IMG/VR virus record: IMGVR_UViG_3300007770_000878
Source of the DNA: a virus
Taxonomy: Duplodnaviria > Heunggongvirae > Uroviricota > Caudoviricetes
Reading direction: 5' to 3' (one strand)
DNA length: 64,000 nucleotides
Positions 24,475 to 64,000 of the stretch are shown here, piece by piece (positions within the stretch are counted from its first letter, which is position 1; each line of letters starts with the position of its first letter). Below the pieces are notes generated by a model that had not been told where the DNA came from, searched no databases, and saw nothing but the letters and a program-made list of their open reading frames with translations. A program made the translations under genes and the position numbers.

Positions 24475-24506
24475 AAGGATCTCCTCCCAAAGATTCTAGC
24501 AGGCCC

Positions 24507-37736: not shown

Positions 37737-37744
37737 GTTGTCCT

Positions 37745-38221: not shown

Positions 38222-38260
38222 TTGAATTCCTAGAACTCGTTAGTCGAAGACCGCCCTTGG

Positions 38261-39033: not shown

Positions 39034-39042
39034 CGTAGTGCC

Positions 39043-40510: not shown

Positions 40511-40511
40511 G

Positions 40512-41069: not shown

Positions 41070-41676
41070 CGGTCATCCCCTGGAAGCACGCAAATTGAGA
41101 GAGGTCTGGGTAGATTTCCTGTTGATCGGCATTGTAATCCGGCAAACGACTCAGCCGTAGAAGGCCTGCTGCTGCGAAGACAGGGTCGAGCGTGTAGTGC
41201 CAGCCCACCATTTCGATATCATCCTCTCGTAGTGGCACCTCCGGATGTCGTCCCGAAAAGCGAGCTTCACGGAGCCACCGATCGGCGTCCGGATCGTCGT
41301 GAAGAATCATACCACCGCGACCGGCGTTGAGGATTTTGGAGAAGTGGAAGGACAGGCATTGCATACGACCAGGTACGAACATGCCGCTGGTGAATCTCTT
41401 GGCCGAATCCCAAATACAGGTGTCACCAAGCTGGTATTCACCAGACCAGGTCCAGTCGGCGAAGCGGACGCGGCCGCCTGCATGAATGATCTCGCAAGGT
41501 ACAGACACATAGGTCCGCTTCGGAATTTTGATGTAAGGTTGTTTGTCTACGTGTTCGTGTTTGCAGCAGAGAAAGAGGGCGTGGGTGCAACTATCGACTG
41601 CCACCGCATAAGGGGCACCGCAGTACTTGGCCACCTCTCGCTCAAACTCTTCAACCACTACATAGGGGTTGCTCAT
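41050..41676 (-). CDS. DegT/DnrJ/EryC1/StrS-family (sugar aminotransferase/dehydratase-like) protein, short form (208 aa)
   Basis: 'EFEREVAKYCGAPYAVAVDSCTHALFLC' (compare 'FE.EFA.Y.G.KYAVAV.SGT.AL.LAL') and 'LSFHFSKILNAGRGGMIL' (PLP-Lys context 'SFH..K...GEGGMI'). Confidence 0.5.
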   Translation of the reverse strand: MSNPYVVVEEFEREVAKYCGAPYAVAVDSCTHALFLCCKHEHVDKQPYIKIPKRTYVSVPCEIIHAGGRVRFADWTWSGEYQLGDTCIWDSAKRFTSGMFVPGRMQCLSFHFSKILNAGRGGMILHDDPDADRWLREARFSGRHPEVPLREDDIEMVGWHYTLDPVFAAAGLLRLSRLPDYNADQQEIYPDLSQFACFQGMTDEVSAS

Positions 41677-41678
41677 AA

Positions 41679-51334: not shown

Positions 51335-54300
51335 TCAGCCACGAGCTGTTCCTCCTACTTGTCCGTTTTGAAGTTGTGCGAGTATTCTTTGCATCAATCC
51401 TTGTTGTTGGTCGGGCGGCAAATTTTGGAAGCCAGGTTGGTTCTGCAGGTTTGCCATTGCTTGCTGAGCGTAGTGCTGCATCGACGGAGATCCGCCAAGT
51501 GCCCCTAACGCACCCAAGCCTGCACCGGCTCCCATCATTCCCAATCCGCCTCCTGTCGAGCCGCCTGCGGCCATCATCCCGAGGCCGCCAAGTCCTAATG
51601 CTCCGCCGCCAAGCAGTCCAGCTTTCATGCCGGGCGACATGTTGCCCCACATCCCCATCATTTTAGCCGCAGGGCTGTTGATGAAGGATTGTGCATCGGG
51701 GTAGCCGAATTGTTTGGCGTACTGGTCAACATAATCTTGGGCACGCGATTCCGCCATTCCACGAATGCCTTCGGCGGCCAAGCCACCGCCAGCGAGTGCG
51801 GAGAAAACTCGTTGACCGGTATTCTGTCCTGAGGCCCACGGGTTGAACATCCGGTGACCTTGATAAACAGCACGCCGTCCGAGGTTAGATATATTCTTGC
51901 CAAGCGGCCCGCCTTTGACCCACTGCAGAGCTTGCGGACTTTTTGGCATCGTTCCCATTTGCATGAGCGACTTAGCCGCACCTTGTCCACGAGCACCGCC
52001 GAGGGTTTTGCCCATCTGCATCATTCGTCGCGGGCCAAGAAAGGCTGAACCGCCTCCAAGAGCACCGCCGATATGTGAAAGGGCACCGCCAGTATCGTAA
52101 CCAGCTAATCCGGCAATTTGGTCAGCACCGTAGCCCGCACCACTTCCGCCCAGATATCCGAGCCCTGTTCGGAGCAACTTTCCTCCCAGTTGCTTGAAGG
52201 CTTGTTTCTCTAACGCGGCCATTTTTGGAGCCAAAGGTTGCTGGTGGGGAACTTTCCCTACTTGCGGACCTTGGCCGCCTGCTCCCATCTCATGTGGTTT
52301 GATCACTTTGAAGGGTTGCGGTTTAGCAGCACGCGACTTCATCGCTCCAGGCAGATTCTGGGCCAGATTGCTCTGGATAGCCGATTGTCCGGCCAAATGC
52401 GACTCCATCCCACGCATTCGGTTGAAGGCATTGGGATCTTGACCACTAGCGAACATATCGTATCGCTTGGTGAAGGCTTGGTGGGCCGGAGTACCTGCTT
52501 GCGAAGCGTAACTGGCTGGAGTTCGTTGTTCCAGGCCTTGCAAGCGTCGAACTTCCCTCATATTGCCTGCCTGCTGTGCTCGAGCGATTTGCGAGGCATA
52601 TCGCCCCGGTTTTGGCCCTGGCGACGGAATTGGCTGGGAACCGGGCGAAATAGCCCCAATCCCAGGCGTTGGCTGGTATTCGTGGCCACCTTGGCCTTGA
52701 ACACGCTGCATTCCACCCATTCCGGGCACATTTTGCTCCAAAACCGTCCCAACAGCTGGTTGTGGCGGCATTGCCGGTTTTTGCGGTGCAATTGGTGCAG
52801 CAGGAGCCTGCTGGGGTTGTGGGCCCGCTTGAGCCGGTGGAACCGCCGATTCCGGGTGTTCGGAACCAGATTCGAAGCGTTGGATGCGTTGAGCCATCTC
52901 TGCGGGGGAAATACCGGCAATTTGGGCTGCTTGTTGCTGTTGAGCGTCGAGGCCCGGGGATACGGGCGGATTTACCGCACTCATTCCTGGCGTCGGCCCT
53001 GCAAACTGCTGCTGAGGTGCCTGTGGGATCTCCTGGCTCAATTCTCCCGCACTTGGAAGCCCCATTCCGATTGATGAGGCCCCTGGCGTGAAAGTGGGCT
53101 CAGGCGGCCCCTGAGGAGCCTCAGGAGGTTGCTGTTGTTGCTGAACGCCAGGAGCGGGCATTTGAGGGACTTGCGGTCCAGGCGTAATGCGATCGTAGCC
53201 AGTGCCATCTTGATCCCAGTTGCCTTGGTAGTATCCTTCGGGCGGTATAGGTTGAGTTTCTTGCCGCATCATTTCAGCTGGCCACTCGTCAGCTCGAGCA
53301 TCCGCACGTGCCCTGGCAAACGGGTCTTGAGCCTGCATTTGCTCCTGAATAGGCCGATCTGGCGGTGTTTCGGTGCCAGGAATGCCTAACAGGCCGTCTG
53401 GCCGTTGATCGAACTCTTCAGGAGCTGGTTCGCCCCTTCCTTCCCACAAGCGGCTTGGTTCGGTCTGAAATGGCGATTGACCGCCCATACCGCCGCCGAT
53501 CTGCGTTCCTGGCGTATGTGGCTTAAAACCGCTGATATCACCACTCGTGAAGGGATCGGTCCCGTCGTCGGGCAGATCATAGGCTTCGGGCGGGATATTC
53601 TGGCCAGCATGGCTGATTTGCTTCGGAGGCCAGGTTGAAGGGAAATCGACCTCGTTCAACGGATCGTACTGGTTCTGCTGAAACTGCGGATCGTTGGCCA
53701 AGTGCGGCGGAATCATTTCAGTCGTAGGATGCCACCCGTACGGATTGGTGCTACCTGGCGGAAATGCCTCGTCATTCGTCTGGGGAAGGCCGCTGGCGTC
53801 GAATGCCTGCTTTTGGCCCGGTTTTGACGCCAAGGAGCGAATACCGGGTGCCTGGGCCTTTTTGAGCTGATTTTCCGGATCTGGGGCCACGAACAGCGAT
53901 TCGGAGGTTCCCCCTGGCGTCAACATGGAATCTACCCCCTTTTCACGCTTTACGTCGCCAAGATCGACTTCCCGGCCAGATTGATCGGGTGCCACCTTGT
54001 ATGGCTTGCGGTATTCACCCGCTGCCGACGCGTTGGTGGTATTTGTGGCTCCTGCGAGTTTGCGGAGATATAGCCAGGGCTCGCGATTGTCTGGGTCACG
54101 CCTGGCCTTTAGCTTGTGTAGCATTTCATCCCAATCAGTAGGGGCTCTTGCCAATTTCTCCGCGATATATCCAGAGGGACCCGCACTACCGGGTGTTGGG
54201 ACCCCTATTTGACCTGTAGTATGTGTGGAGACCTCCCGCACCTCCCCTGCTTGGGGACCCCCTATTCCTGCCTGGCCAAGAAATGTTGAGGGATAGGCTA

Positions 54301-55936
54301 GCTTGTCTGTCCCCGTCTTTTCTGGCAGATGAAGCAGTGTTCGCATACGTTTGTTGGCTGAGCCTGCCATGTGTGAGCCTAATCCCTTTATGTCCTGTAG
54401 ATTGGGTGGGTTTGTGATGAGGTGGTGTAGCTTGGTCCACTTACTGGCGTTTCCCTGGGGTTTTGGCCTGAATCGGTCGTATGCGGCCTCGCCTGCCATG
54501 TAACCAGCGGGAATACCAGCCAATCCGCCGCCAAGTCCTGCCCTAAGCTCCCCTGGCGATGTGAGTTTGACGCCTGGGATCGGTGAGAGGCCAGTGGGGC
54601 GAAAACGGCGATAAAGAGCCCTGGCACCGTGAGAACCAAGCCCCATTCCAAGCCAAGATGCCAAAAGACCAGGCAAAATGGCATCTTTCTCCATGTGAAT
54701 CCCTTGGTCGCTTGTGGAATTGCCCTGGCCAGCCGAACTGGACTTTCCATAAGCACCCATAAGCACGCCAGAGTCTTGGCGATCACGCTCCGGCCCCATT
54801 AATTCATCAGCCAGGTAATCTCCGCCCTTCCCTGCAGCATAAGAACCCAAACCACCGGAACCGAAGATTGCAGCAAGACGAAGCCAAGGATTATCAACAG
54901 ATGAAGAGAGTTCGTTCCCGGCCATCGCACCAATGCCAAAACCTGCTCCGGATGCTCCGCCCGTCAAAGCACCACGGGCCATGCCGTGTAACTTTGAATC
55001 GTCGGGAGCACGGCCTAAGCCACGAGCGGCACCCCATCCTGCACCTAAACCCAATGATAGCAAGGGGTTGGCTCGTTTCTCTGTCGTCGCTCTTTTACTG
55101 GCCGTGGCGTGATGTCGGTCGCCAGAAGGGTCTGGCGTCAAGTACGGAGACTGAATACCGGACAGATTAGCCCTGGCGTCAAGACCGTAAGTGTTGCCCT
55201 GGCCATAGGTTGCGTGTTTGTGTCGATCGAGCGTTGTGTTAGGAACACGCCCTGCCTCCGTCCGAGCAACCTCTTCACAAACCCCCGTCGGAAGGGCATT
55301 GGCGGATGACTTCGAACGAACAGGGTAAGCCCGAGCAACCGCTTTTCGTGTCTTTTCTTTACCTATCAGAGCCAGATTACGTGGGGTATTAGCCATCTTT
55401 GGCAACATTCCCCCCATCGGTACCTGATCCTCTGGTGAAAGCGGCTGTGGAGTCTGAGTACTCGCCATAACAGGACTACGCAACGGCACTTGGCTCGTAA
55501 TTGGCCCCTCACCCGGCTTCTGAATAGCTCCAGTCGCTCCAAACCCTGGAACTGGTGACTGTGGAGGCAACATAGGCTGTTGTGGGGGTTGCTGAGGCAT
55601 TTGACCCTGGCCAGCTACCTGCATTGGCATATTAGCCATTTTAGGCTGAAGCCCTGGCAGCTTATGTGGAAGAGCCGCCTGTCCAGGTAACGGTTTAGGC
55701 AACAAACCAGGAGCTATCGTATTCATAGCTGCAGGCGATTGAGCTACACCCTGTGGAGTAGCCAATACCGGGGGCTTGTGAAGAGGTGTTGCTCCTGGAG
55801 CTGGTCCTGCTACACGTCCTGCCTGTGGGGAGTTAATACCAGAAGTACGTGCCATCTGGTGTGGGCTCTCAGTAGTTGGCATCTGCATGTGATCAACCGC
55901 ATTAGTTGTTAACGGTTGAGGTGTGAGATTTGGCAT
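51335..55936 (-). CDS. giant Pro/Gln/Gly-rich low-complexity protein (1533 aa)
   Basis: Single uninterrupted ORF. The first roughly 450 and residues 900-1200 are extremely P/Q/G/A-rich with 'PQQPPQQP' runs. The central and C-terminal parts are Gly-rich with aromatic residues. The antisense plus ORFs were rejected. Confidence 0.6.
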   Translation of the reverse strand: MPNLTPQPLTTNAVDHMQMPTTESPHQMARTSGINSPQAGRVAGPAPGATPLHKPPVLATPQGVAQSPAAMNTIAPGLLPKPLPGQAALPHKLPGLQPKMANMPMQVAGQGQMPQQPPQQPMLPPQSPVPGFGATGAIQKPGEGPITSQVPLRSPVMASTQTPQPLSPEDQVPMGGMLPKMANTPRNLALIGKEKTRKAVARAYPVRSKSSANALPTGVCEEVARTEAGRVPNTTLDRHKHATYGQGNTYGLDARANLSGIQSPYLTPDPSGDRHHATASKRATTEKRANPLLSLGLGAGWGAARGLGRAPDDSKLHGMARGALTGGASGAGFGIGAMAGNELSSSVDNPWLRLAAIFGSGGLGSYAAGKGGDYLADELMGPERDRQDSGVLMGAYGKSSSAGQGNSTSDQGIHMEKDAILPGLLASWLGMGLGSHGARALYRRFRPTGLSPIPGVKLTSPGELRAGLGGGLAGIPAGYMAGEAAYDRFRPKPQGNASKWTKLHHLITNPPNLQDIKGLGSHMAGSANKRMRTLLHLPEKTGTDKLAYPSTFLGQAGIGGPQAGEVREVSTHTTGQIGVPTPGSAGPSGYIAEKLARAPTDWDEMLHKLKARRDPDNREPWLYLRKLAGATNTTNASAAGEYRKPYKVAPDQSGREVDLGDVKREKGVDSMLTPGGTSESLFVAPDPENQLKKAQAPGIRSLASKPGQKQAFDASGLPQTNDEAFPPGSTNPYGWHPTTEMIPPHLANDPQFQQNQYDPLNEVDFPSTWPPKQISHAGQNIPPEAYDLPDDGTDPFTSGDISGFKPHTPGTQIGGGMGGQSPFQTEPSRLWEGRGEPAPEEFDQRPDGLLGIPGTETPPDRPIQEQMQAQDPFARARADARADEWPAEMMRQETQPIPPEGYYQGNWDQDGTGYDRITPGPQVPQMPAPGVQQQQQPPEAPQGPPEPTFTPGASSIGMGLPSAGELSQEIPQAPQQQFAGPTPGMSAVNPPVSPGLDAQQQQAAQIAGISPAEMAQRIQRFESGSEHPESAVPPAQAGPQPQQAPAAPIAPQKPAMPPQPAVGTVLEQNVPGMGGMQRVQGQGGHEYQPTPGIGAISPGSQPIPSPGPKPGRYASQIARAQQAGNMREVRRLQGLEQRTPASYASQAGTPAHQAFTKRYDMFASGQDPNAFNRMRGMESHLAGQSAIQSNLAQNLPGAMKSRAAKPQPFKVIKPHEMGAGGQGPQVGKVPHQQPLAPKMAALEKQAFKQLGGKLLRTGLGYLGGSGAGYGADQIAGLAGYDTGGALSHIGGALGGGSAFLGPRRMMQMGKTLGGARGQGAAKSLMQMGTMPKSPQALQWVKGGPLGKNISNLGRRAVYQGHRMFNPWASGQNTGQRVFSALAGGGLAAEGIRGMAESRAQDYVDQYAKQFGYPDAQSFINSPAAKMMGMWGNMSPGMKAGLLGGGALGLGGLGMMAAGGSTGGGLGMMGAGAGLGALGALGGSPSMQHYAQQAMANLQNQPGFQNLPPDQQQGLMQRILAQLQNGQVGGTARG

Positions 55937-56009
55937 GGAGACGGCTTCCCTGACTATGGTGTAGTTGCCGAGTTTTGACGTTTGGCGATAAGCGGATTAT
56001 AGCGTAACG

Positions 56010-56060
56010 CTGATAGCTAAAAAAAGGGGAGAACCAAAGCGACTGCCTGGCTAACTCCCC
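56010..56060 (-). promoter_or_regulatory. conserved 18-nt motif copy 3 plus adjacent hairpin ('GGGGAG...CTCCCC')
   Basis: 'ctgatagctaaaaaaagg' then 'ggagaaccaaagcgactgcctggctaactcccc'. It lies 73 nt upstream of the start of the 1533-aa gene. The intervening sequence contains 'GCTATAATC'. Confidence 0.55.
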
Positions 56061-56069
56061 GGCTGGCTA

Positions 56070-56369
56070 CTAGAAGATCGCCTTGCCTGTAGCAGCGTGA
56101 CAATGCTTCTCCAATTGAGTTCGTTGGTGGGAAATGGTCCGCTGCTGCTCCTGGGCAACACGCTCCGCCTCCTTCAAACGGGTTAACAGCTTACCAAGTG
56201 CCCGCTCCTGGCGTACCGTGTGCTTAACCAACTCGTCAAGCAAGTTTGGGCCAGTCATAGGGGCTTCAAGCTGCCCCTGTAGCTCGCTTGGCTGCAAAAT
56301 ATCGTGAATCATCAGACTACCTCTGCCATTGTGTATAAAAGGGAGCAGCCCTCCAGTTAATCCTGGCAA
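56070..56369 (-). CDS. hypothetical protein (99 aa)
   Basis: ORF. Confidence 0.4.
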   Translation of the reverse strand: MPGLTGGLLPFIHNGRGSLMIHDILQPSELQGQLEAPMTGPNLLDELVKHTVRQERALGKLLTRLKEAERVAQEQQRTISHQRTQLEKHCHAATGKAIF

Positions 56370-56436
56370 GGCCCTCAGCGAAGGCCCCGTTAAACGGCAC
56401 CGCTCCCCCGCACACTTGGCGTCAAATGGATTAAAA

Positions 56437-56730
56437 TTAGTCTAGCTCGATCACCTGGTCGGACATGCCCGTCCAGTATTTCTTCCTGAACGCCAGCATC
56501 ACGAGAGCCGACGGGCGACAGATACTCGCGACGTCCTCCTTGAACGCCAGCATCTCTTCCTGCATAAAAATGACTGGCTCGGTTGTGAAGCTGCCGCCGC
56601 TTTGGTGCTTGACCCAACCCTTGATAGCGTCGATTTGGGCGTCGTAGTCCTCAGCAGGTATGTCCAGCTCGAACCGGCGAAGGTAAACGCCATCCTCGTC
56701 CCCCCAAGCCGCGAGTGCCTTGGTAGCCAT
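56437..56730 (-). CDS. hypothetical protein (97 aa), preceded by conserved leader module
   Basis: ORF. The upstream leader 'CCAATAAGCGACCAAGGAATT' is shared with two other genes. Confidence 0.4.
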   Translation of the reverse strand: MATKALAAWGDEDGVYLRRFELDIPAEDYDAQIDAIKGWVKHQSGGSFTTEPVIFMQEEMLAFKEDVASICRPSALVMLAFRKKYWTGMSDQVIELD

Positions 56731-56760
56731 AATCCGTCCTCTCCTTAGGGTTTACTGCAA

Positions 56761-56785
56761 TTCCTTGGTCGCTTATTGGGTTGAA
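56761..56785 (-). promoter_or_regulatory. conserved 5' leader element copy 1 ('ttccttggtcgcttattgggttgaa' on plus; 'TTCAACCCAATAAGCGACCAAGGAA' in gene sense)
   Basis: Same about 24-nt element upstream of three minus-strand starts, with SD 'AAGGAG' at its 3' end. Here it is preceded (minus sense) by T6 and a long inverted repeat, 'GGCCAGTCTCAAGT' at about 56835-56848 paired with 'ACTTGAGACTGGCC' at about 56941-56954. Confidence 0.5.
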
Positions 56786-57108
56786 ATGAGCACCGCTCCC
56801 CGAATTAGTCGCCTGACGTAGAAAAAAGGCCAGTCTCAAGTTTAGCCTACCACTCGTTCCCCATAGCCGCAGCAGTACATACGTGTGAAGGGGGTTAGCC
56901 TTCGGAATACCGCTGACCGACTACGTATCCCAAGCAGACACCACTTGAGACTGGCCCTGGATCGCACTTTAGCTTTCCGTAGCTCGCCCGCCACTGGCGG
57001 GTGGGTGTTTTGTCCGGCACCCAGATGACGTACCGGCCTCCGTGCTCACCTGGCCGTGCTGCGTATTATCGGCGGGGACCTAACACAGTACGGCTTTACG
57101 CTCGTAGA

Positions 57109-57612
57109 CTATGCGTACCACGCCGCCGTAGCATCTACCTCGTACTGCGTTCTACCACGTAACCTCACCTCGCAACGACGTGGCTTTGTGCGAATACCAG
57201 TTGATGACAATCCATCAAATACAAGCACGTTGGCGTAACCGTCCCACTCCTCGAAATCCACTGGATGAGCGAAATCCCAACCAGCCGGAATGCCGTGAGC
57301 AAGACCACCCCAGTAAAACATGGGACGAATCGCTCCTGAAACAAACGTAGGAGCCGGTATGCAGTCGTAATGCAATACCAGCCTGTCCTCGCGTCCGCCA
57401 ATGTCCCGCAAAAACGCTGCTACCGTGTCTACTGTCTCCACTGGACAAAGCGGACCATCCAACACCTCAGGATGTGTTGCTAACCACCTATCCACAGCAG
57501 CATTCAATAGCTCCCTCCGTGTCGCTACCATGTAACCACCTCGTGTGTAAGGACTTGTGTAGAAAAAAGAAAGAGAGGGCATGCATCGCAGCACTAGCCT
57601 CGCTTGGATCAA
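57109..57612 (-). CDS. hypothetical protein (167 aa)
   Basis: ORF. Contains a degenerate 'TRRELL' but no hydrophobic h-region. Confidence 0.4.
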   Translation of the reverse strand: MIQARLVLRCMPSLSFFYTSPYTRGGYMVATRRELLNAAVDRWLATHPEVLDGPLCPVETVDTVAAFLRDIGGREDRLVLHYDCIPAPTFVSGAIRPMFYWGGLAHGIPAGWDFAHPVDFEEWDGYANVLVFDGLSSTGIRTKPRRCEVRLRGRTQYEVDATAAWYA

Positions 57613-57613
57613 A

Positions 57614-58174
57614 CTAGACTATTAGACCAACTGACCTGGCGACGCCTTGAAGATCTCTCCAGTAACCAATCCTCGTGTAGTTGGCGTCGAAACTCTTGAC
57701 GTGGTTGTGATGATCGCGAATATCGATCGGCAACGCCGCCGCTGATGCTGTACGCCTAATCGCACTAAACTTAGGGCAGAAACGGAATCTACCCTGTGCA
57801 TCGAAACACCAATCAAGCGGGTGCGGCGTGTGTTCGACCCAAGCGGCACGTTCTGATGTTCCGTAAGGAGCGTAGTACCGTGCCTGGCGAATGTGCGAAC
57901 GGCGATAGTGATACGATGCAGCGTGTGCAACGGCCAACTTCAACAGGACGTGGAGTTGGCCGTCGCGTTCGTCGTATGTCTCGGTAACCTTGAATATGTC
58001 CAGTACCTCGGAAAACGCGTAGCTGTCAATGTCAATGCGTAACGCCAAATAGCCTAGGGCAGGTTTGCACGGCTTCTGGACAGCACCTTCGACCAATGGT
58101 GTAGTTGCCAAGATCGGAACTGCCGCCAAAGCAGCTGCAGTTCCTTTGAGCATGTCTCTGCGTGTTGTTTCCAT
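57614..58174 (-). CDS. Tat-signal secreted protein, family member D (track ORF 57614..58240; likely start 'METTRRDMLKG')
   Basis: 'METTRRDMLKGTAAALAAVPILATTPLVEGA' is a twin-arginine motif plus h-region plus AxA-like site. Shares 'GYLAL' and 'WCFDAQGRFRFCP' with members A and B. Confidence 0.55.
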   Translation of the reverse strand: METTRRDMLKGTAAALAAVPILATTPLVEGAVQKPCKPALGYLALRIDIDSYAFSEVLDIFKVTETYDERDGQLHVLLKLAVAHAASYHYRRSHIRQARYYAPYGTSERAAWVEHTPHPLDWCFDAQGRFRFCPKFSAIRRTASAAALPIDIRDHHNHVKSFDANYTRIGYWRDLQGVARSVGLIV

Positions 58175-58191
58175 ACTGTTGAACTCCTTCG

Positions 58192-58231
58192 TTTGGATCA
58201 TGTTGTTGTGGGAAAAAGTGGTGTCTTTTTC
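58192..58231 (-). promoter_or_regulatory. perfect 17-bp inverted repeat hairpin immediately upstream of the SD/start of Tat member D
   Basis: 'gttgttgtgggaaaaag tggtgt ctttttcccacaacaac'. In gene sense this is followed by 'ATGATCCAAACGAAGGAGTTCAACAGTATG', related to the 'ATCCAA...AAGGAGTTCA' leader consensus. Confidence 0.5.
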
Positions 58232-58262
58232 CCACAACAACTGTAACCGCTACGACCTGGCG

Positions 58263-58895
58263 TCAAGCACCGCGACCAAGTATGTGATCGCTTACGCCCA
58301 AGTACATGCTCGCCGCTGCCTGCTTCTCAGAAAGCATCGTCCAAGCGTGCAACGCACCACACTCTTTGTATCGCTCAAGATACTGCGTGACTGCTTTGGG
58401 CAACTGCTCACCGTCAAGCAGACTGCCTTGTGCTTTGCTGGCCTTGAAGTACAAACGATGGCTGGCAATGTCGTAATGCCAGCCGTTTGGATCAACGTTG
58501 TTGCCGTGAAGCAAATGCTCGAGCCACAAGACCTTGACGCCGCCAAGCCTCGTGGATAAAGGATACGGCCGGTAATGAGCACACCATCGCACGTCGTTCT
58601 TGAGATAGTACTGCAAGTTGTGCTCGTACAAAACGCGTTTTGGGAAGCGTGGGCCAGTCAAACCAGCCTCTACGCACAACCGCGTGGCCCAAACACCGAT
58701 CATCGTCTCGTACTGGCCAACCGGAACATCCGATGACACCAGTAGAATGCCTTCCGGCAATTCTGACATCAGTTCGTTAACCTTAGCTTGCGGCGAAGAG
58801 CTGGCCTGGGCCGATGGTGTAGTTGCCAAGATCGGACCTGCAACCAACGCTGCCGCCGAAGCCTTGATCATCTCTCTGCGTGTTGTTTCCACAAC
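58263..58895 (-). CDS. Tat-signal secreted protein, family member C (track ORF 58263..58961; likely GTG start 'VETTRREMIK' with SD GGAGGA)
   Basis: 'ETTRREMIKASAAALVAGPILATTPSAQA'. Confidence 0.5.
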   Translation of the reverse strand, partial: VVETTRREMIKASAAALVAGPILATTPSAQASSSPQAKVNELMSELPEGILLVSSDVPVGQYETMIGVWATRLCVEAGLTGPRFPKRVLYEHNLQYYLKNDVRWCAHYRPYPLSTRLGGVKVLWLEHLLHGNNVDPNGWHYDIASHRLYFKASKAQGSLLDGEQLPKAVTQYLERYKECGALHAWTMLSEKQAAASMYLGVSDHILGRGA

Positions 58896-58942
58896 GTCCT
58901 CCATTTCGTAAGTGTATACCAGAACAACTAGCGTCGTCGGCC

Positions 58943-59476
58943 CTAAAGCGATTCGTACCAAGCCTTTTGCTCAGCAACCTCCTGTTCCGATTCCGGTTCG
59001 GGCTCAGGCTCCGACGGACTATTTAGGTCTAGCCCAGACTGATACGCGTCTGATGCTTGGCCCAACGTGGCGAGCAAGATGCACAACACACGACCGATAG
59101 TGACACGAGGCAGGCCTGACGACTCCATCATACGGCCCCGAAAAACAGGCAGCTCCACACGGAATTTACGAAGTGCTGTTGTTAGCGAGTGGTGGTTGGC
59201 TTTCAACAGCTCGGGACGATACTCCCCTGTTTCGTTCATAACTTTGGCCAAAAGCTCTACCAGCTGCACCCATTCGGCAAGTTCGGTGCCTAGATAGGCC
59301 AGAGCCTGTGCGTCTGACAGCTGGACCGCCGTCAGCTCCTTGTCGGTAAGCTTGTCAACTAGGTGCAGCTCGTCAATGCTCCCAAGACCCGATCGAGTGA
59401 CCGCGTCAGTCGCCAAACGAGCCCGTAAACCCTCAAGAGTCGAATCAGTATTTGAGTAGATCGCGTAAATATTCAT
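58943..59476 (-). CDS. hypothetical cytoplasmic protein (177 aa) interleaved in the Tat-family array
   Basis: ORF with no signal peptide. Preceded by the conserved hairpin + leader. Confidence 0.45.
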   Translation of the reverse strand: MNIYAIYSNTDSTLEGLRARLATDAVTRSGLGSIDELHLVDKLTDKELTAVQLSDAQALAYLGTELAEWVQLVELLAKVMNETGEYRPELLKANHHSLTTALRKFRVELPVFRGRMMESSGLPRVTIGRVLCILLATLGQASDAYQSGLDLNSPSEPEPEPESEQEVAEQKAWYESL

Positions 59477-59486
59477 GTCGCAGCAA

Positions 59487-59556
59487 CTCCTTGGTCGCTT
59501 GTCGGATTAGAGCACAGCACGCCTGCAAACTACGTCGTAAGCAAAACGTGCTGTGC
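59487..59556 (-). promoter_or_regulatory. conserved leader element copy 2 plus upstream 10-bp hairpin ('GCACAGCACG...CGTGCTGTGC')
   Basis: 'ctccttggtcgcttgtcggattag' directly before ATG 59476. The hairpin is at about 59512-59556. Confidence 0.5.
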
Positions 59557-59583
59557 CTCTCCTGGCTTCACGCCTTGCGGCTG

Positions 59584-60249
59584 CTAGCCGTTGTACACCA
59601 TTGGATTAAAATGTGTACTCCACGCTGACGTGACTGCAACGTTGCGAAGATGCCTAACCATCGTCGCTGGCAGCTCCTCGCGAGTCAGCAGACGCCTGTT
59701 GGGCGGACGTTTGCTGACTAAAACCCTGCCATCGAATAGATCGCGGCGACGGTAATAGGGATCGAAGCAAAAATGCTCGCCTTCCCACCACCAACGGTCG
59801 GAATACCTGTGGAACTTGTACTCTAGAAACGTGTCAACGGCCTTGCCTGGCCATTTGTGACTGCTCTGAGGTAGGAAGTGGTAGTACCAAGTGACGACGT
59901 CGATATCTTGGTCCCGAAACCACCAGCTCGTGCTCTTTGATGACCACAGCTCTACTTTTAGGTAGCCGTGGTGACTGTGGGGCGTAGCCCTTACCGCAGG
60001 CATCACCTTTTTCGACGAGAATATGCTCGTGGCTTTGCCTTGCAACAAACCATAAGCACAGGCCCTGTCGTCAGTGCCGAGCAGTAAGTAGCCTTGCTTG
60101 CCGGGGCAGCCCGATGTAACCCTTGGCCCTAGCTTTGTTGTGAATTCGTCGTGGTGGTGGGCCTGTACCAACGACGTCGCTGTTGCGAGAGAGCCAGCAA
60201 CCAACGCGGCGGCTGTGCCCTTGATCATTTCTCTACGTGTTGTTTCCAT
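59584..60249 (-). CDS. Tat-signal secreted protein, family member B (221 aa)
   Basis: 'METTRREMIKGTAAALVAGSLATATSLVQA'. The mature part shares 'GYLLL', 'FSSKKV', 'WW..D..FCFDP' and 'PPNRRLLTREEL' with member A. Confidence 0.55.
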   Translation of the reverse strand: METTRREMIKGTAAALVAGSLATATSLVQAHHHDEFTTKLGPRVTSGCPGKQGYLLLGTDDRACAYGLLQGKATSIFSSKKVMPAVRATPHSHHGYLKVELWSSKSTSWWFRDQDIDVVTWYYHFLPQSSHKWPGKAVDTFLEYKFHRYSDRWWWEGEHFCFDPYYRRRDLFDGRVLVSKRPPNRRLLTREELPATMVRHLRNVAVTSAWSTHFNPMVYNG

Positions 60250-60302
60250 ACGATTAGATTCCTATTTTGTTGTGACGTTCGGGTGCCGACGACGGCTAGT
60301 CT

Positions 60303-60911
60303 TCAGCTTATCGCATACGTGGGATCAAGCTCAGCATCTAGCGTTATGCGATTAGGAGGATAGCTGAGCACCGTAGTTGTCATTTGGTACGTGTCCACCC
60401 TCGTCAGATGCGTTCGCACGCAACCCGGCAACCGCTCACGGGAGCGGAACGAGTGGCACGCAGAACTGCCTTGTGGTTCAAAGCAAAACGTATCGTCTCG
60501 CCACCACCACGCGGACAAACTGGGCAGTCGGTATTCAACCCAAACCTCACTCACCCAGTTCCGCTCAGGAAGGTGAGCGTACCAACGAGCTTCTACAATC
60601 CCCAGTGCTCGCAGTATTCGGGGGTACGTGGTGTCAGCAAGTTGCACCTCCCGGTGAAACCGGCGACCAGGTATGCCGCAGTGCGTTGAGCACACGGCTT
60701 TAGATGAGAATACGCCCACCGCTTTGGCAGGAGCATCTCGGCGTTCAGCCGACAATAGCACAAGATAGCCGTTGTGCATGTTTATCGGTTGAACACGCAC
60801 TCGGCCAACGGCTGCGGGTGCACATCCTTGAACTTGTGTGGCAGCTAAAACCGGACCAGCGGCCAACGCGGCTAGACTGCCCTTTATCATCTCTCGCCGT
60901 GTTGTCTTCAT
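60303..60911 (-). CDS. Tat-signal secreted protein, family member A (202 aa)
   Basis: 'MKTTRREMIKGSLAALAAGPVLAATQVQG'. Preceded by the conserved hairpin + leader. Confidence 0.55.
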   Translation of the reverse strand: MKTTRREMIKGSLAALAAGPVLAATQVQGCAPAAVGRVRVQPINMHNGYLVLLSAERRDAPAKAVGVFSSKAVCSTHCGIPGRRFHREVQLADTTYPRILRALGIVEARWYAHLPERNWVSEVWVEYRLPSLSAWWWRDDTFCFEPQGSSACHSFRSRERLPGCVRTHLTRVDTYQMTTTVLSYPPNRITLDAELDPTYAIS

Positions 60912-60912
60912 G

Positions 60913-60982
60913 CTGAACTCCTTGGTCGCTTATTGGATTAAAGCCAGGGCGTACGGAGCAATAAACGCACGCCCTGGCCGCA
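60913..60982 (-). promoter_or_regulatory. conserved leader element copy 3 plus upstream 9-bp hairpin ('CCAGGGCGT...ACGCCCTGG')
   Basis: 'gctgaactccttggtcgcttattggattaaag' directly before the start of Tat member A. The hairpin is at about 60945-60980. Confidence 0.5.
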
Positions 60983-61159
60983 ATATGCAACAATTGGGTT
61001 GCTGAGTGTCTACACAACACAAAGCATGCTGCATACTGATTTGAAAGCCAAGCCAGGCGTCGTGAACACACCTGCCTTGGCAACAAAGTACGTAGCCGAT
61101 GGATAGACCATCCGTGCTAACAGACACAAATGGTGCGACTACGCACCTGTACGTAAGTA

Positions 61160-61200
61160 AAGAAACAAAGGCTGGGCGGTTTTAGGCCGCCCAGCCCGAA
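61160..61200 (-). terminator. intrinsic-terminator-like hairpin (minus-strand sense)
   Basis: Plus 'aagtaaagaaacaaaggctgggcggttttaggccgcccagcc'. In minus orientation a 10-bp GC stem 'GGCTGGGCGG/CCGCCCAGCC' is followed by 'TTTGTTTCTTTACTT'. Confidence 0.55.
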
Positions 61201-61424
61201 ACGAGGTGCCGCCGGAGAGAGGAGAGTGTTACCTGTCCTTGGCTCCATCGACAGCTGACGTGCACTGACACCGTGTGTTCAACTGTCCACTTCCAGATCC
61301 TACCTACGCCTAACACTGCAAGCAGCACGGCGAAACAGTTACCACTGGAGAAACGTTGAACGGCTCAGCTCGCAAAGCCGATCGTCTGTGCCCGCCCATC
61401 CTGATGCGAAACAACAATGATTGG

Positions 61425-61841
61425 CTATACTGCACAGCTACTACACAGCCGCACATCCTCTCCGACACTGCGGTTAGTAACGGAGAGACGGCTGCCGCAC
61501 TCTTGGCAAGCGGGATGCAACGTACTAAGTCGTAACCAGTTTAGGTTGGATCCTTGTCCTGGCCATTTCTGAAAACAGTGCTCGATGACTCGCTGACGGT
61601 AGTCTTCTGTCTCCAACGTCAGGTTATCGAACATGTAGGCGTAACGCTTAGCGGTGTCCAGGGCTATGTCAGCCTTGTCCGCCGAGTCCGCCTCACGCAA
61701 ACAATTTAACATAACGTAACCATCGCCCTCGGCGTCTCGTTCCAGTAGATACTGGACGATAGCCTTAACCTCGCGGCGGGCTGCTCGCATCTCGTCGGCT
61801 AGCCTTACAAATGGTTGAACCGGCATTCTGCTCCTCCTCAT
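61425..61841 (-). CDS. hypothetical protein with C-terminal zinc ribbon (138 aa)
   Basis: 'CQECGSRLSV...CSSCAV'. Confidence 0.4.
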   Translation of the reverse strand: MRRSRMPVQPFVRLADEMRAARREVKAIVQYLLERDAEGDGYVMLNCLREADSADKADIALDTAKRYAYMFDNLTLETEDYRQRVIEHCFQKWPGQGSNLNWLRLSTLHPACQECGSRLSVTNRSVGEDVRLCSSCAV

Positions 61842-62107
61842 AGGTACTGGGGTCTAGCAAGCAGCTGCTTGCTAATCGCAACGTTCGTCAAAAGCCCCGC
61901 CAGAGCGGTAGGGCTTACCTCGCTCTGGTAGATCCTCTTGAGCAGTTGGGGCTTGGCCCTCGAACTGCCCGTTGACGACAAGCCTGCCGGAACACGTGTA
62001 GTGTGGGCAGGCTTGCACAAGAAAACGATAACCGCCGGATACGCGGTACTCACGCCTGCATGTATCGCAGACAAACTCTCGTGTGGAAATGGTAACAACT
62101 CCTTTTG

Positions 62108-62815
62108 TTAGTATGCTTCGCCGGTCCACCAACCGTCCTCGACTGCCTCATCGACCCAGCGGTACAGTTCGTAATACAACGGGCCGGGAACAGGCAAGTT
62201 GCCGGTCTTGAACACTCCGACGAGTATTGGGTCAGGATCAGGAATACGCGTGACCAGCACGTCGTTCGGAACCCACCACACCTCGCAGCTGTCAAACAGA
62301 GCCCTGCTGGCTGTGTATGCCGACATGGCCGCTGCGGGTGGACTCGGTGTCTTGGCGGTCACTTTACACGCACCACAGTCCGACTTTTCCATGACTTGGA
62401 ACGGTGCAGGCAGTGGGGCTCTGAAAATTAGTGGCACCTTCACTACCTTGTTGCCGTACCGTGCCTCACGCTTGAGGCTGCCATCAAGCGTGACCCTCCG
62501 AAACCGCTCCTCGGCGTTGGTGACAGCGATGGCCCGCTCACGGTTTACGTCTAGTCTCGATTGCAAGTCACCGAGCAGACTGTTAGTTACTTCTCGCTCG
62601 GCACTAGTGATCGTGTCCAACTTCTCTGTAACGCTTTGTATCTTCTCCAAGACAGGGCTGCCGACAGGCTCTGCTTCCGCAATGCCTAGTGCAGATAGAT
62701 CGTCCATCCTTGCTCTCCTCGAGTTGGTGTGTAGAAATACAAAAGGGGTGGCTCGAAAGCCAAACATACGCGGCGTGTTAAGACATCCTTGCCAGCCCCT
62801 TTCGACGTATCGCAC
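62108..62815 (-). CDS. hypothetical protein (235 aa)
   Basis: ORF. Confidence 0.4.
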   Translation of the reverse strand: MRYVERGWQGCLNTPRMFGFRATPFVFLHTNSRRARMDDLSALGIAEAEPVGSPVLEKIQSVTEKLDTITSAEREVTNSLLGDLQSRLDVNRERAIAVTNAEERFRRVTLDGSLKREARYGNKVVKVPLIFRAPLPAPFQVMEKSDCGACKVTAKTPSPPAAAMSAYTASRALFDSCEVWWVPNDVLVTRIPDPDPILVGVFKTGNLPVPGPLYYELYRWVDEAVEDGWWTGEAY

Positions 62816-62824
62816 GTAGCCGTG

Positions 62825-63052
62825 CTAAGGGCTACTCGACGTACTCGTTTGTGGTTCCACGGCAGTTGAGAATCGCCGTATGTACTTACCAAAGCAAAGC
62901 AACGCTACGGCAATGACTACTACCGCGATGGTGTAGCACATGTTGCTAACAGCGTACGCGTGCTCCGGCTCTACCGTTTTCTTGTGCGGCTTGCTAGGTG
63001 GTGGTCCACTGCGAAGCTGCCCAAAAAAGCCATCGTTATCCAAATCGGTCAT
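62825..63052 (-). CDS. small membrane protein (75 aa)
   Basis: C-terminal TM 'IAVVVIAVALLCFG'. SD 'AGGAG' sits inside the repeated 'CTACGCCTAA..GCAAGCAGCACG' element upstream. Confidence 0.35.
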   Translation of the reverse strand: MTDLDNDGFFGQLRSGPPPSKPHKKTVEPEHAYAVSNMCYTIAVVVIAVALLCFGKYIRRFSTAVEPQTSTSSSP

Positions 63053-63168
63053 ATAGGCATCTCCTACGCCTAAGAATACGCAAGCAGCACGCCTGGCCGG
63101 ATGTCCGGCCTTTGCTGTTGTTTGGTGGAACGCAGGCGGAACGCCAGGCGTGCTGCAACAGAATTGGT

Positions 63169-63939
63169 TTAGTCCTCAGCCGCTAGGGCCTCAGCCTTGA
63201 CGTAATACTTCTCTTCAAACTTCTCGTGCTCCTCCTTAGCGATGACGCGGCATCGGACCATCGCGTTGTTAGCCCCGTCTCTGTGGGAGTTCCACATGTG
63301 TCGCACATGTATCCTGGCTAGCTCGAGCCGTTCGAAATGGCGGCTGGCGTCAACGTTGGCAAGCAGATGCTTAGTCAGCTTGTCGTCTGCGTCCATGAGA
63401 GCTATGTCAACGTCCAGGTTAAGCATGAACGTCTCGACCTCCGCTGGCGGTAACTTATACACCGTGCCGATGTCCTGGTGCTTGCTTAACCACTTTACCG
63501 CAGACGCTTGAGGGTCGTGATTGGCGTACCAAGCCAGGGCTGTTTGCACTTTGTCAACGAGGGCCATTTCTTGCACAGAGGCCATAACGATGTCACCGTC
63601 GCCGCCAAGTGCGGGGCGGGAAACCGGTATTGCCACCTCGTGCTGATTTCTCGAGTGAGACTGTACGCCTGCCTGCACCCTGGCAAGCTGCCGGGAGCGT
63701 TTGAACGCTTGCTCCTCCATCTCGTCGAAGTGCTGTACAAGGAACTCGTCCTTGGGATACAGCTCGAACTCACCAGTCTCGGAGTCTGTTCTACCGTAAC
63801 CCTCGTCCGTCAGCTGTTGAAGCAGTTGGATGTAAGGGTTGGGCCACAATTGGGTTTTGGCGATGTTGACGCCCATTGCACCGATGATTAGTCCGATGAC
63901 ACAAAAGACGAACCCAAAACGCGATGCGTAGCTGTTCAT
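63169..63939 (-). CDS. hypothetical protein with N-terminal TM (256 aa)
   Basis: 'FGFVFCVIGLIIGAMGV' then a soluble domain. Confidence 0.45.
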   Translation of the reverse strand: MNSYASRFGFVFCVIGLIIGAMGVNIAKTQLWPNPYIQLLQQLTDEGYGRTDSETGEFELYPKDEFLVQHFDEMEEQAFKRSRQLARVQAGVQSHSRNQHEVAIPVSRPALGGDGDIVMASVQEMALVDKVQTALAWYANHDPQASAVKWLSKHQDIGTVYKLPPAEVETFMLNLDVDIALMDADDKLTKHLLANVDASRHFERLELARIHVRHMWNSHRDGANNAMVRCRVIAKEEHEKFEEKYYVKAEALAAED

Positions 63940-64000
63940 GTCTTCTGCCGCTAGGCTAACTGCGTTACGGGCTATGTCCTGACCGTCAGCTTTCAGCCCG

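What the first reader, a model, noticed from the sequence alone, without database searches (positions are those of the whole stretch)
57109..61000. Tandem array of four paralogous genes sharing a near-identical twin-arginine (Tat) signal peptide, each behind a hairpin + conserved leader module
Four co-directional ORFs start 'M(E/K)TTRR(E/D)M(I/L)KG(T/S)(A/L)AALAAGP(I/V)LA(T/A)T...(A/G)'. This is a textbook Tat motif with h-region and cleavage-site-like end. The mature parts diverge. Members A, B and D share 'GYL.L', 'FSSK.V', 'WW..D.FCF(E/D)P' and 'PPNR..LT.EL'. Member C is much more divergent. A 177-aa non-secreted ORF is interleaved. Upstream of three genes in or near the array is a conserved element 'TAATCCAATAAGCGACCAAGGAGTT' containing the SD. 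It is preceded by a GC hairpin in each case. Member D has instead a perfect 17-bp inverted repeat before a related leader. This looks like a diversifying family of host-secreted effector or receptor-type proteins with preserved export and expression signals. I know no described phage system of this kind.
Basis: partly seen in the sequence, partly recalled or inferred. Interest (0 to 1): 0.8.

Follow-up and report, generated by a model that had tools for sequence, protein, structure and literature searches.

The report
Phage gene family with Tat export signals
An uncultivated marine jumbo-type phage carries four very diverged sister genes that keep the same twin-arginine (Tat) export signal, so they are probably folded proteins sent into the host cell envelope, but their job is unknown and nothing like them exists in public databases.

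Summary
The core observation is real. On the minus strand, four ORFs start at 60911, 60249, 58892 (GTG) and 58174. All begin M(E/K)TTRR(E/D)M(I/L)K, followed by an 18-20-residue uncharged stretch and an AxA-like end. The signals are 59-69% identical. The mature parts are 19-28% identical but still homologous (A-B p=6e-8; A-C, A-D and C-D p=2e-4 to 2e-3). Synonymous differences inside the signal point to protein-level constraint, not recent duplication.

The title overstates one point. Only A and D, plus the signal-less orf177 and a 97-aa ORF, sit behind a hairpin and leader; B and C do not.

The mature domain has no relative among 1.84 billion representative proteins, in Pfam, PHROGs, NCBIfam or PDB, or in the nearest isolated phage. 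All metagenome copies are 100% identical, so diversifying selection cannot be tested. Structure models were unusable (pLDDT 41-44).

Best reading: basic, aromatic-rich, probably beta-rich proteins exported by the host Tat pathway, encoded in a rearranging ORFan region with terminator/promoter-like cassettes. Relics support the rearrangement: orf140 keeps a decayed MVATRRELL N-terminus, and a signal-derived 14-mer lies upstream of the next gene.

Verdict: a new variant of a known kind, of moderate interest.

The parts
60303..60911 (-). Member A. 202-aa pre-protein with a predicted Tat signal at residues 1-29 (DNA 60825-60911), ending VQG|C. SD AAGGAG lies 7 nt before the ATG.
   Evidence: PF10518 14.0 bits
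59584..60249 (-). Member B. 221-aa pre-protein with a signal at residues 1-30, ending VQA|HHH. It lies 53 nt after A, with no hairpin or leader of its own, so it is probably co-transcribed with A.
   Evidence: PF10518 14.2 bits; TIGR01409 12.8 bits and TIGR02811 signal region E=9e-5
58943..59476 (-). orf177. Acidic (pI 4.7), predicted all-helical protein with no signal, placed behind a hairpin and leader and directly upstream of C. It is an orphan.
58263..58892 (-). Member C. 209-aa pre-protein with a GTG start after GGAGGA and a signal at residues 1-30, ending AQA|SSS. It has no hairpin or leader of its own.
   Evidence: (gene callers give 209 aa); TIGR01409 13.7 bits
57614..58174 (-). Member D. 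186-aa pre-protein with a signal at residues 1-31, ending EGA|V.
   Evidence: TIGR01409 17.8 bits, above the 16.7 cut-off; PF10518 19.2 bits
57109..57531 (-). orf140. Acidic (pI 5.3) protein whose N-terminus MVATRRELLNAAVDRWLATHP resembles the family's n-region, but whose h-region is broken by D14 and R15. It is possibly a decayed or re-purposed fifth 5' end. The body is unrelated to the family.
   Evidence: It ranks 5th of 3531 ATG/GTG starts, just behind the four members. Alignment. Body not related, p>0.1. The signal HMM alone is not significant, E=2.5.
60942..60979 (-). 14-bp-stem hairpin immediately upstream of the leader of A.
   Evidence: z -4.7; coordinates
60916..60940 (-). Leader copy 1, TAATCCAATAAGCGACCAAGGAGTT. 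It contains the SD of A.
59510..59557 (-). Hairpin with a stem of about 15 bp, immediately upstream of the leader of orf177.
   Evidence: (z -3.7)
59485..59509 (-). Leader copy 2, TAATCCGACAAGCGACCAAGGAGTT. It contains the SD of orf177.
58202..58241 (-). Perfect 17-bp inverted repeat with a 6-nt loop, upstream of D.
   Evidence: I3; z -5.0
58182..58199 (-). Degenerate leader of D, GATCCAAACGAAGGAGTT.
56759..56783 (-). Leader copy 3 (3 mismatches), 28 nt upstream of the start codon of the 97-aa ORF (56730..56437). Here the leader's AAGGAA is not the functional SD.
56826..56958 (-). Extended hairpin of about 133 nt followed by TTTTTT, upstream of leader copy 3.
   Evidence: I13; z -5.0
55956..56001 (-). 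Relic of a leader plus signal 5' end, upstream of the 1533-aa gene. TATAATCCGCTTATCGCCAAACG (leader-like) is followed by GGCAACTACACCAT. That exact 14-mer otherwise occurs only in the signal-coding DNA of C and D.
   Evidence: D4. My estimate of the chance expectation for one further exact copy in 128 kb of both strands is about 5e-4.

Best explanation
WHAT IT IS. The array is a phage-specific family of four old paralogues encoding pre-proteins that the host twin-arginine (Tat) pathway exports.

PROPOSED MECHANISM
1. The proteins fold in the cytoplasm.
2. Host TatBC recognises the conserved T-R-R-(E/D)-M-(I/L)-K motif and the 18-20-residue A/G/T/P-rich h-region.
3. The folded protein crosses the inner membrane.
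4. Signal peptidase I cuts after AQA, VQA, EGA or VQG.
5. This releases 155-191-aa domains into the cell envelope. They are basic (pI 7.8-9.6), rich in Trp, Tyr, His and Arg, and probably beta-rich.
6. I infer that they bind envelope components rather than catalyse a reaction. The only invariant mature residues are V, G, L, P, E, L and P.
7. I infer that the four copies have diverged to recognise different targets.

TRANSCRIPTION. The genes appear to be read in short units: [hairpin+leader] A-B, [hairpin+leader] orf177-C, and [hairpin+degenerate leader] D(-orf140). The hairpin and leader behave like the composite terminator/promoter cassettes of hyperplastic phage regions. The 5' module (leader plus signal) has recombined or decayed several times.

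SHOWN: the signal anatomy, its protein-level conservation, the homology of the mature domains, the orphan status, the cassette copies and the relics.

INFERRED: actual Tat export, signal cleavage, envelope binding, the transcription units, and the role of the acidic partners orf177 and orf140.
For: - Signal anatomy and invariant Tat-consensus positions.
- TIGR01409 is above its cut-off for D and positive for B and C. PF10518 gives weak hits for A, B and D.
- No other N-terminal RR-plus-uncharged-stretch ORF exists in about 81 kb of this phage.
- Signal identity is 17-20 of 29 residues, against 19-28% in the mature part.
- Codon identity among the conserved signal residues is 6/16 to 10/18 in five pairs, so the duplications are old and the peptide is under purifying selection. 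In C-D it is 15/19, with 82% nucleotide identity, so the 5' end was exchanged more recently.
- The mature domains are homologous. Shuffle tests give A-B p=6e-8, A-D 4e-4, C-D 2e-4 and A-C 2e-3, and the controls orf140 and orf177 all give p>0.1. Each member ranks first in leave-one-out HMM searches of 1033 ORFs.
- Basic mature domains sit beside acidic neighbours.
- Cassette copies and hairpin stability.
- Relics.
- The phage context is an RNAP-encoding jumbo-type phage. The window also carries sugar-nucleotide genes; that these act on host surface glycans is my inference and was not tested.
Against: - No dedicated Tat predictor (SignalP 6, TatP, TATFIND) could be run.
- Three of the four signals fall below the curated cut-offs of both TIGR01409 and PF10518.
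- No member has a basic 'Sec-avoidance' residue in its c-region.
- The host is unknown, so the presence of a Tat system is assumed.
- The structure models were unusable (pLDDT 41 and 44). 'Beta-rich binding domain' therefore rests on a poor model and on the absence of conserved polar residues.
- There is no relative anywhere and no sequence variation between samples. That leaves no comparative or population evidence for function or selection.
- C and D reach only E=0.05 in leave-one-out HMM searches.
Confidence: 0.65

Rival explanations
1. Portable export cassette. The conserved unit is a recombinationally mobile 5' module (leader plus Tat-signal coding DNA) that gets grafted onto ORFs. Signal conservation would then come mainly from gene conversion or cassette exchange, not from selection on four vertically inherited paralogues. 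This overlaps with the best explanation but shifts the cause of the conservation.
For: - The C and D signals are 82% identical in DNA, with 15/19 identical codons, while their mature parts are about 20% identical.
- An exact 14-mer from the signal recurs upstream of the unrelated 1533-aa gene, next to a leader-like element.
- orf140 has a family-like n-region on an unrelated body.
- The leader is shared with non-family genes (orf177 and the 97-aa ORF).
Against: - The four mature domains are themselves homologous, so grafting onto unrelated ORFs is not needed to explain the four members.
- A versus B, C and D show near-random synonymous codon use at conserved residues. That points to old divergence with purifying selection.
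- B and C lack the leader, so leader and signal do not always travel together.
Confidence: 0.2
2. Uncleaved N-terminal anchor. The Tat or Sec-type signal is not removed, and it tethers the domains to the periplasmic face of the inner membrane, as in Rieske-type Tat signal anchors. For A, a lipid-modified Cys is an alternative tether.
For: - Uncharged runs of 18-20 residues are long enough to span a membrane.
- A ends VQG|C, which is loosely lipobox-like.
- Tethering would suit superinfection-exclusion-type functions.
Against: - Pro or Gly sits in the middle of the h-region (AGPIL, AVPIL, AGSLA).
- Small-x-small ends (AQA, VQA, EGA) are typical of cleaved signals.
- VQGC fails the usual lipobox requirement at position -4/-3. 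That judgement is from my knowledge of PROSITE PS51257 and was not run as a test.
Confidence: 0.1
3. The shared N-terminus is not an export signal. Instead it is a virion- or compartment-targeting propeptide, like the capsid-targeting sequence shared by the T4 internal proteins IPI-III, and a phage protease removes it.
For: The architecture resembles the T4 IP locus: a short conserved N-terminus, variable bodies and cassette-like regulatory repeats in an ORFan region. Basic proteins are typical of DNA-associated internal proteins.
Against: - The segment is a textbook Tat signal. It has a twin arginine and a long uncharged stretch, which capsid-targeting sequences lack.
- Only D has an L-x-E-type protease motif (LVE|G); the other three have Q at that position.
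- Hits to Tat-signal HMMs.
Confidence: 0.04
4. The export route is Sec, not Tat. On this reading the RR pair is only a positively charged n-region.
For: - The h-region hydrophobicity (mean Kyte-Doolittle 1.3-1.5) is not extremely low.
- There is no c-region basic residue.
- Three of the four signals are below the curated Tat HMM cut-offs.
Against: - Sec n-regions are not conserved in sequence. Here T-T-R-R-x-M-x-K is invariant across paralogues whose mature parts are about 20-28% identical.
- The net n-region charge is only +1 in three members, which is weak for Sec. The RR-x-hydrophobic-hydrophobic-K pattern is nevertheless intact.
Confidence: 0.08

Closest known systems
Bacterial Tat signal peptides (TIGR01409 / Pfam PF10518 TAT_signal; consensus S/T-R-R-x-F-L-K)
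   Same: The layout is the same: an n-region with T-R-R-x-hydrophobic-hydrophobic-K, a moderately hydrophobic A/G/T-rich h-region of 18-20 residues, and an AxA-type c-region. D passes the TIGR01409 cut-off.
   Different: - The signal is encoded by a lytic-type jumbo phage.
- It is attached to a mature domain with no homologue anywhere.
- F and L are replaced by M and I/L.
- Three members score below the curated HMM cut-offs.
- No cofactor-binding motif or known Tat-substrate domain is present.
PeSL cassettes (composite terminator / early-promoter stem-loops) of T4-like phages (PMC2839356, PMC4122927)
   Same: Short conserved stem-loop-plus-regulatory-sequence modules are repeated in front of ORFan genes. 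They are associated with indels and rearrangements, seen here as relics at 55956-56001 and at the orf140 N-terminus.
   Different: - This phage is not T4-like, and its nearest RNAP relatives are only about 31% identical.
- No sigma-70-type promoter is detectable (0 sites in 8.1 kb).
- The hairpins lack a T-run, so they are not canonical intrinsic terminators.
- The conserved part extends into the 5' UTR and SD.
- No related genome pair is available to show cassette-mediated indels.
T4 internal-protein locus (IPI/IPII/IPIII share a short N-terminal capsid-targeting sequence; bodies vary between T-even phages). Recalled from my own knowledge, not from a paper read here.
   Same: It is a family of small basic phage proteins with a conserved, probably cleaved N-terminal targeting peptide and fast-diverging bodies, in a plastic region.
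   Different: The targeting peptide here has the anatomy of a membrane-translocation signal, not a prohead-targeting one. Three of the four members lack the L/I-x-E cleavage motif.
Gene superfamilies with a conserved signal peptide and a hypervariable mature part (e.g. conotoxin superfamilies). Recalled from my own knowledge.
   Same: The usual pattern is inverted: the signal (59-69% identical) is much better conserved than the mature protein (19-28%).
   Different: Those families are eukaryotic Sec/ER signals with demonstrated positive selection on the mature toxin. Here selection cannot be measured, and part of the signal similarity (C-D) looks like recent 5'-end exchange.
Phage-encoded exported superinfection-exclusion or envelope proteins (T4 Imm/Sp, T5 Llp, Streptococcus phage Ltp). 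Recalled from my own knowledge.
   Same: These are small phage-encoded proteins sent to the envelope of the infected cell. This is the most plausible functional class for the array.
   Different: Those proteins use Sec or lipoprotein signals and are single-copy. There is no sequence or structural similarity, and no functional evidence here.

Membership tests
Tat (twin-arginine) signal peptide | Twin-arginine consensus S/T-R-R-x-F-L-K close to the N-terminus | tested here: met
   All four members have T-R-R-(E/D)-M-(I/L)-K at residues 4-10, with T, RR, M and K invariant. M and I/L are conservative replacements of F and L.
Tat (twin-arginine) signal peptide | Uncharged, moderately hydrophobic h-region of at least about 13 residues after the motif | tested here: met
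   Uncharged runs of 19, 20, 20 and 18 residues. Mean Kyte-Doolittle 1.26-1.53 over the first 15.
Tat (twin-arginine) signal peptide | Signal-peptidase I site (small-x-small) at the end of the c-region | tested here: met
   AQA|S (C), VQA|H (B), EGA|V (D) and VQG|C (A). Cleavage itself was not shown.
Tat (twin-arginine) signal peptide | Score above the curated cut-off of TIGR01409 or PF10518 | tested here: inconclusive
   TIGR01409 (cut-off 16.7): D 17.8 passes; C 13.7 and B 12.8 are below; A has no hit. PF10518 (cut-off 22.7): D 19.2, B 14.2 and A 14.0.
Tat (twin-arginine) signal peptide | Export depends on TatABC and on the RR pair | not testable with these tools
   This needs reporter fusions in wild-type and tat-mutant hosts. 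The host of this phage is unknown.
PeSL-type composite terminator/promoter cassette | Stable stem-loop directly joined to a conserved regulatory sequence, repeated before several genes | tested here: met
   There are three copies of the 25-nt leader plus one degenerate copy. The hairpins abut the leader at A, orf177 and D, and one ends about 45 nt upstream at the 97-aa ORF. Hairpin z-scores are -3.7 to -5.0.
PeSL-type composite terminator/promoter cassette | Contains a host sigma-70 early promoter | tested here: not met
   No sigma-70-like site on either strand of 55900-64000, against 4.7 expected in shuffles. Only a T-N-T-A-A-T -10-like hexamer begins the leader.
PeSL-type composite terminator/promoter cassette | Cassettes flank indels between closely related genomes | not testable with these tools
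   All available copies of the region are 100% identical and no related genome was found. The only indirect evidence is the internal relics.
T4 internal-protein-type capsid-targeting sequence | Short hydrophilic N-terminal targeting peptide ending in an L/I-x-E prohead-protease site | tested here: not met
   The peptide is about 30 residues with a hydrophobic core. Only D has LVE; A, B and C have Q at that position.
Tat proofreading chaperone (TorD/DmsD REMP family), considered for orf177 and orf140 | Match to the TorD/DmsD family or a TorD-like all-helical fold | tested here: inconclusive
   No Pfam, NCBIfam or PHROG match at E<=0.1 to 1. The orf177 model is all-helical but has pLDDT 44, too poor for a fold search. 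orf177 has no homologues.
Bacterial lipoprotein, considered for member A | Lipobox L-(A/S/T)-(G/A)-C at the end of the signal | tested here: not met
   A has T-Q-V-Q-G-C. Q at -2 and -4 does not fit the usual lipobox (sequence; the rule is from my own knowledge). B, C and D have no Cys at +1.

The most novel reading that the evidence does not exclude
The most novel reading is that this phage maintains its own small 'secretome'. A recombinationally active 5' module (hairpin, leader and Tat-signal coding DNA) keeps export and expression constant. The attached domains diversify against envelope targets. The two co-transcribed acidic, signal-less proteins (orf177, and orf140 with its retained RR n-region) act as phage-encoded Tat chaperones, hitchhiker partners or decoys. 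That would be the first phage-encoded system that programs the host Tat pathway.
Probability: 0.2. Interest if true: 0.75.

Novelty: new variant of a known kind. Interest (0 to 1): 0.5.

Why it matters
Phage proteins known to be sent to the host envelope use Sec, lipoprotein or SAR signals. My searches found no described multi-copy phage family that relies on the Tat pathway.

If export is confirmed, three things would follow:
- Large marine phages would be shown to exploit the folded-protein export route.
- The array would be a natural example of a signal peptide conserved more strongly than its cargo.
- A wholly new protein fold family would be available for study.

The value is limited for now. 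The phage is uncultivated, its host is unknown, there are no relatives or variants to compare, and the structure could not be predicted.

Tried and rejected
- **Homologue searches.** The full-length profile against 5.8 billion proteins and the mature-domain profile against 1.84 billion representatives with full HMMER returned only the four proteins themselves. Two further hits were giant repeat proteins (P0005, P0006), which I judged spurious after reading them.
- **Family and structure libraries.** Pfam, NCBIfam and PHROGs gave nothing. The PDB profile search gave nothing at E<=10.
- **Phage and metagenome collections.** No match by INPHARED megablast or tblastn. IMG/VR protein and DNA pattern scans found nothing. 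The JGI metagenome scan gave 511 pattern matches, none confirmed.
- **orf177.** It is an orphan as well.
- **Signal-only search for host-like signals.** It failed three times: query too short for the genome scan, query too short for the protein search, then no scored candidates.
- **Host inference from the phage S12 gene.** The best genome matches (45-51% identity) were scattered between Gammaproteobacteria and Patescibacteria MAGs. This was not informative.
- **Nearest isolated relative.** I scanned all of Vibrio phage D69 for N-terminal Tat-like ORFs and found none.
- **orf140 as a full fifth member.** Rejected. Only its first ~10 residues (~30 nt) resemble the family.
- **Hairpins as canonical intrinsic terminators.** Rejected. 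They have no T-run and the scan did not flag them.
- **Recent tandem duplication.** Rejected on codon evidence.

Full report
**Setting.** The window looks like part of a large, uncultivated phage.
- Almost all long ORFs are on the minus strand.
- It encodes a multisubunit RNA polymerase. One 1885-aa ORF fuses beta with the N-terminal part of beta' and carries an intein. A 1020-aa ORF encodes the C-terminal part of beta' and carries a second intein.
- It also encodes a DNA ligase, an exonuclease, a dCMP deaminase, a ribosomal protein S12 homologue and two groups of sugar-nucleotide genes.
- It has no near match in INPHARED. Its RNAP is only about 31% identical to those of Vibrio phage D69 and Salmonella phage Arash.
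- The same sequence occurs in several marine metagenome assemblies (JGI 3300007510, 3300007511, 3300007754; ENA SUTE22-1; Logan SRR8062323). All are 100% identical over the array.

**The observation.** Four ORFs on the minus strand begin with nearly the same 29-31 residues. They are A (60911..60303), B (60249..59584), C (58892..58263, GTG start after GGAGGA) and D (58174..57614).
- The signal-coding DNA forms an 81-nt four-copy direct repeat.
- A looser six-frame twin-arginine scan (RR, two loosely defined positions, then at least 13 uncharged residues) found no other hit at an ORF N-terminus in about 81 kb of this phage.
- The interleaved 177-aa ORF is real.
- The three leader copies are real (none expected by chance).
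- The perfect 17-bp inverted repeat before D is real.
- The hairpins are stable (z -3.7 to -5.0).

- B and C have no hairpin or leader. The units are [hairpin+leader] A-B, [hairpin+leader] orf177-C and [hairpin+degenerate leader] D. A further leader copy lies before a 97-aa ORF outside the array.
- The motifs FSSK.V, WW..D.FCF and PPNR occur in A and B only. D shares only GYL.L with them.
- C is not an outlier.

**Is the N-terminus a Tat signal?**
- The residues invariant across the four proteins are T3, T4, R5, R6, M8, K10, A14, A15, L16, A18 and T25. These are the S/T-R-R-x-F-L-K positions plus the start of the h-region.
- After K10 there are 18-20 uncharged residues of moderate hydrophobicity, with Gly or Pro in the middle.
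- The signals end AQA, VQA, EGA or VQG.
- TIGR01409 scores D above its curated cut-off, and scores B and C just below it.
- PF10518 gives sub-threshold hits for A, B and D.
- No dedicated predictor was available. On this evidence I put Tat targeting at about 0.65-0.7.

**Old paralogues, not a fresh duplication.** Signal identity is 17-20 of 29 residues. Mature-domain identity is 19-28%.
- At residues conserved within the signal, roughly half the codons or fewer are identical in most pairs: A-B 9/16, A-D 6/16, B-D 7/16. The peptide has therefore been kept by selection while synonymous sites drifted.
- C-D is the exception, with 15/19 identical codons and 82% nucleotide identity. This suggests a later exchange of the 5' end.
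- The mature domains are still homologous. Smith-Waterman shuffle tests give A-B p=6e-8, A-D 4e-4, C-D 2e-4, A-C 2e-3 and B-C 0.03. All comparisons with orf140 and orf177 give p>0.1.
- In leave-one-out HMM searches of 1033 ORFs, each member ranks first: A 2e-7, B 4e-8, C 0.054 and D 0.055.

**Orphan status.** The mature-domain profile finds only the four proteins among 1.84 billion representatives.
- The full-length profile finds nothing else among 5.8 billion proteins.
- No family library, PDB sequence, INPHARED genome, IMG/VR contig or JGI metagenome contig gave a relative.
- orf177 is an orphan too.
- The closest isolated phage, D69, has no N-terminal Tat-like ORF.

**What the proteins look like.**
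- The mature parts are 155-191 aa and basic (pI 9.0, 9.6, 7.8 and 9.2).
- They are rich in Trp, Tyr, His and Arg.
- The only invariant mature residues are V, G, L, P, E, L and P. This argues for a binding scaffold rather than an enzyme.
- The two signal-less neighbours are acidic. orf177 has pI 4.7 and is predicted helical at pLDDT 44. orf140 has pI 5.3.

**Signs of rearrangement.**
- orf140 begins MVATRRELLNAAVDRWLATHP. Its first 30 nt, or 10 residues, are the best match to the family's 5' end among 3531 ATG/GTG positions in the window, after the four members themselves. Its h-region is interrupted by charges and its body is unrelated.
- Upstream of the next large gene (1533 aa, start 55936) there is a hairpin with a T-run, then a leader-like TATAATCCGCTTATCGCCAAACG, then the exact 14-mer GGCAACTACACCAT. 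That 14-mer otherwise occurs only in the signal-coding DNA of C and D.
- These look like remains of further leader-plus-signal 5' ends. The region is therefore a plastic ORFan region.

**The hairpin and leader modules.** They are not canonical intrinsic terminators, because they lack a T-run. No sigma-70-type promoter is found.
- The leader starts with a -10-like T-N-T-A-A-T. This is also seen as TA(T/G)AAT after a second conserved intergenic motif, CTTTTTTTAGCTATCAG.
- I read the modules as composite insulator or processing hairpin, plus promoter-proximal element, plus 5' UTR.
- They are functionally analogous to the PeSL cassettes of T4-like phages (PMC2839356, PMC4122927). They are not members of that class, because the sigma-70 promoter criterion is not met and the phage lineage differs.

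**Mechanism proposed.**
1. The pre-proteins fold in the cytoplasm.
2. Host TatBC recognises them through TRR(E/D)M(I/L)K.
3. They are translocated and cleaved by signal peptidase I.
4. They act in the envelope as basic binding proteins.
5. Divergence of the four copies reflects different or changing targets.

Only the signal anatomy, its conservation, the homology and the cassette structure are shown. Export, cleavage and function are inferred. Rivals are a mobile export cassette as the main cause of conservation (0.2), an uncleaved membrane anchor (0.1), Sec rather than Tat (0.08) and a virion-targeting propeptide (0.04).

**Novelty and score.** The components are known kinds: a Tat signal, a phage ORFan paralogue family and regulatory cassettes. 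A phage paralogue array built on a conserved Tat signal, with a mature domain that has no relative at all, is not described in the libraries or papers I could search. I rate it a new variant of a known kind, interest 0.5. It is real and unusual, but its function is opaque and for now it lacks any comparative or experimental handle.

Noticed in passing
window 11653-17310 (-) and 7110-10172 (-): The multisubunit RNA polymerase is arranged as one 1885-aa ORF fusing beta with the N-terminal part of beta', interrupted by an intein (Intein_splicing + LAGLIDADG). A 1020-aa ORF encodes the C-terminal part of beta' with a second Hint/LAGLIDADG intein. The nearest phage relatives (Vibrio phage D69, Salmonella phage Arash) are only about 31% identical.
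   Followed up: partly
window 30751-31152 (-): The phage encodes a ribosomal protein S12 homologue (PF00164, E=3e-23). Its best genome matches are 45-51% identical and scattered across Gammaproteobacteria and Patescibacteria MAGs, so it gives no host signal.
   Followed up: partly
window 28251-29918 (-) and 36912-42719 (-): There are two groups of sugar-nucleotide or glycan genes: RmlD-like reductase, GT2 glycosyltransferase, two methyltransferases, a DegT aminotransferase fragment, an epimerase/dehydratase, and a Clp_N + cytidylyltransferase fusion. I infer that the phage modifies surface glycans or its own DNA or virions.
   Followed up: partly
window 56010-56026, 24506-24522, 21259-21275 (-); variant at 29992-30003 (-): A second conserved intergenic element, CTTTTTTTAGCTATCAG, occurs three times exactly and once as a variant. 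Three of the four follow a GC hairpin. At 56010 and 24506, TATAAT or TAGAAT follows 8-9 nt later. It is probably a terminator/promoter class of this phage.
   Followed up: partly
window 56731-57108 (378-nt gap), hairpin 56826-56958 (-): An unusually long extended hairpin of about 133 nt (-65.6 kcal/mol, z -5.0) followed by TTTTTT lies in a 378-nt non-coding gap. It has no Rfam match and no tRNA. It could be a strong terminator or a structured RNA.
   Followed up: partly
window 51335-55936 (-): A 1533-aa Pro/Gln/Gly-rich low-complexity ORF has Gly-rich hydrophobic stretches and no family match. One contig (L001) differs from the window by an indel inside it, which is the only difference seen between samples.
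   Followed up: no
window 61169-61197 (-), in the 297-nt gap between the 138-aa ORF and a weak 65-aa ORF (61127..60930) upstream of gene A: This is the only canonical intrinsic-terminator-like site near the array (11-bp stem, 9 GC pairs, T-run). It probably closes the upstream transcription unit before the A cassette.
   Followed up: no
window 63169-64000 (-) and L001 5944-7743: The ORF listed as 256 aa (63939..63169) is open to the window edge. Gene callers on the longer contigs give 414 or 599 aa, so the window truncates this gene.
   Followed up: partly
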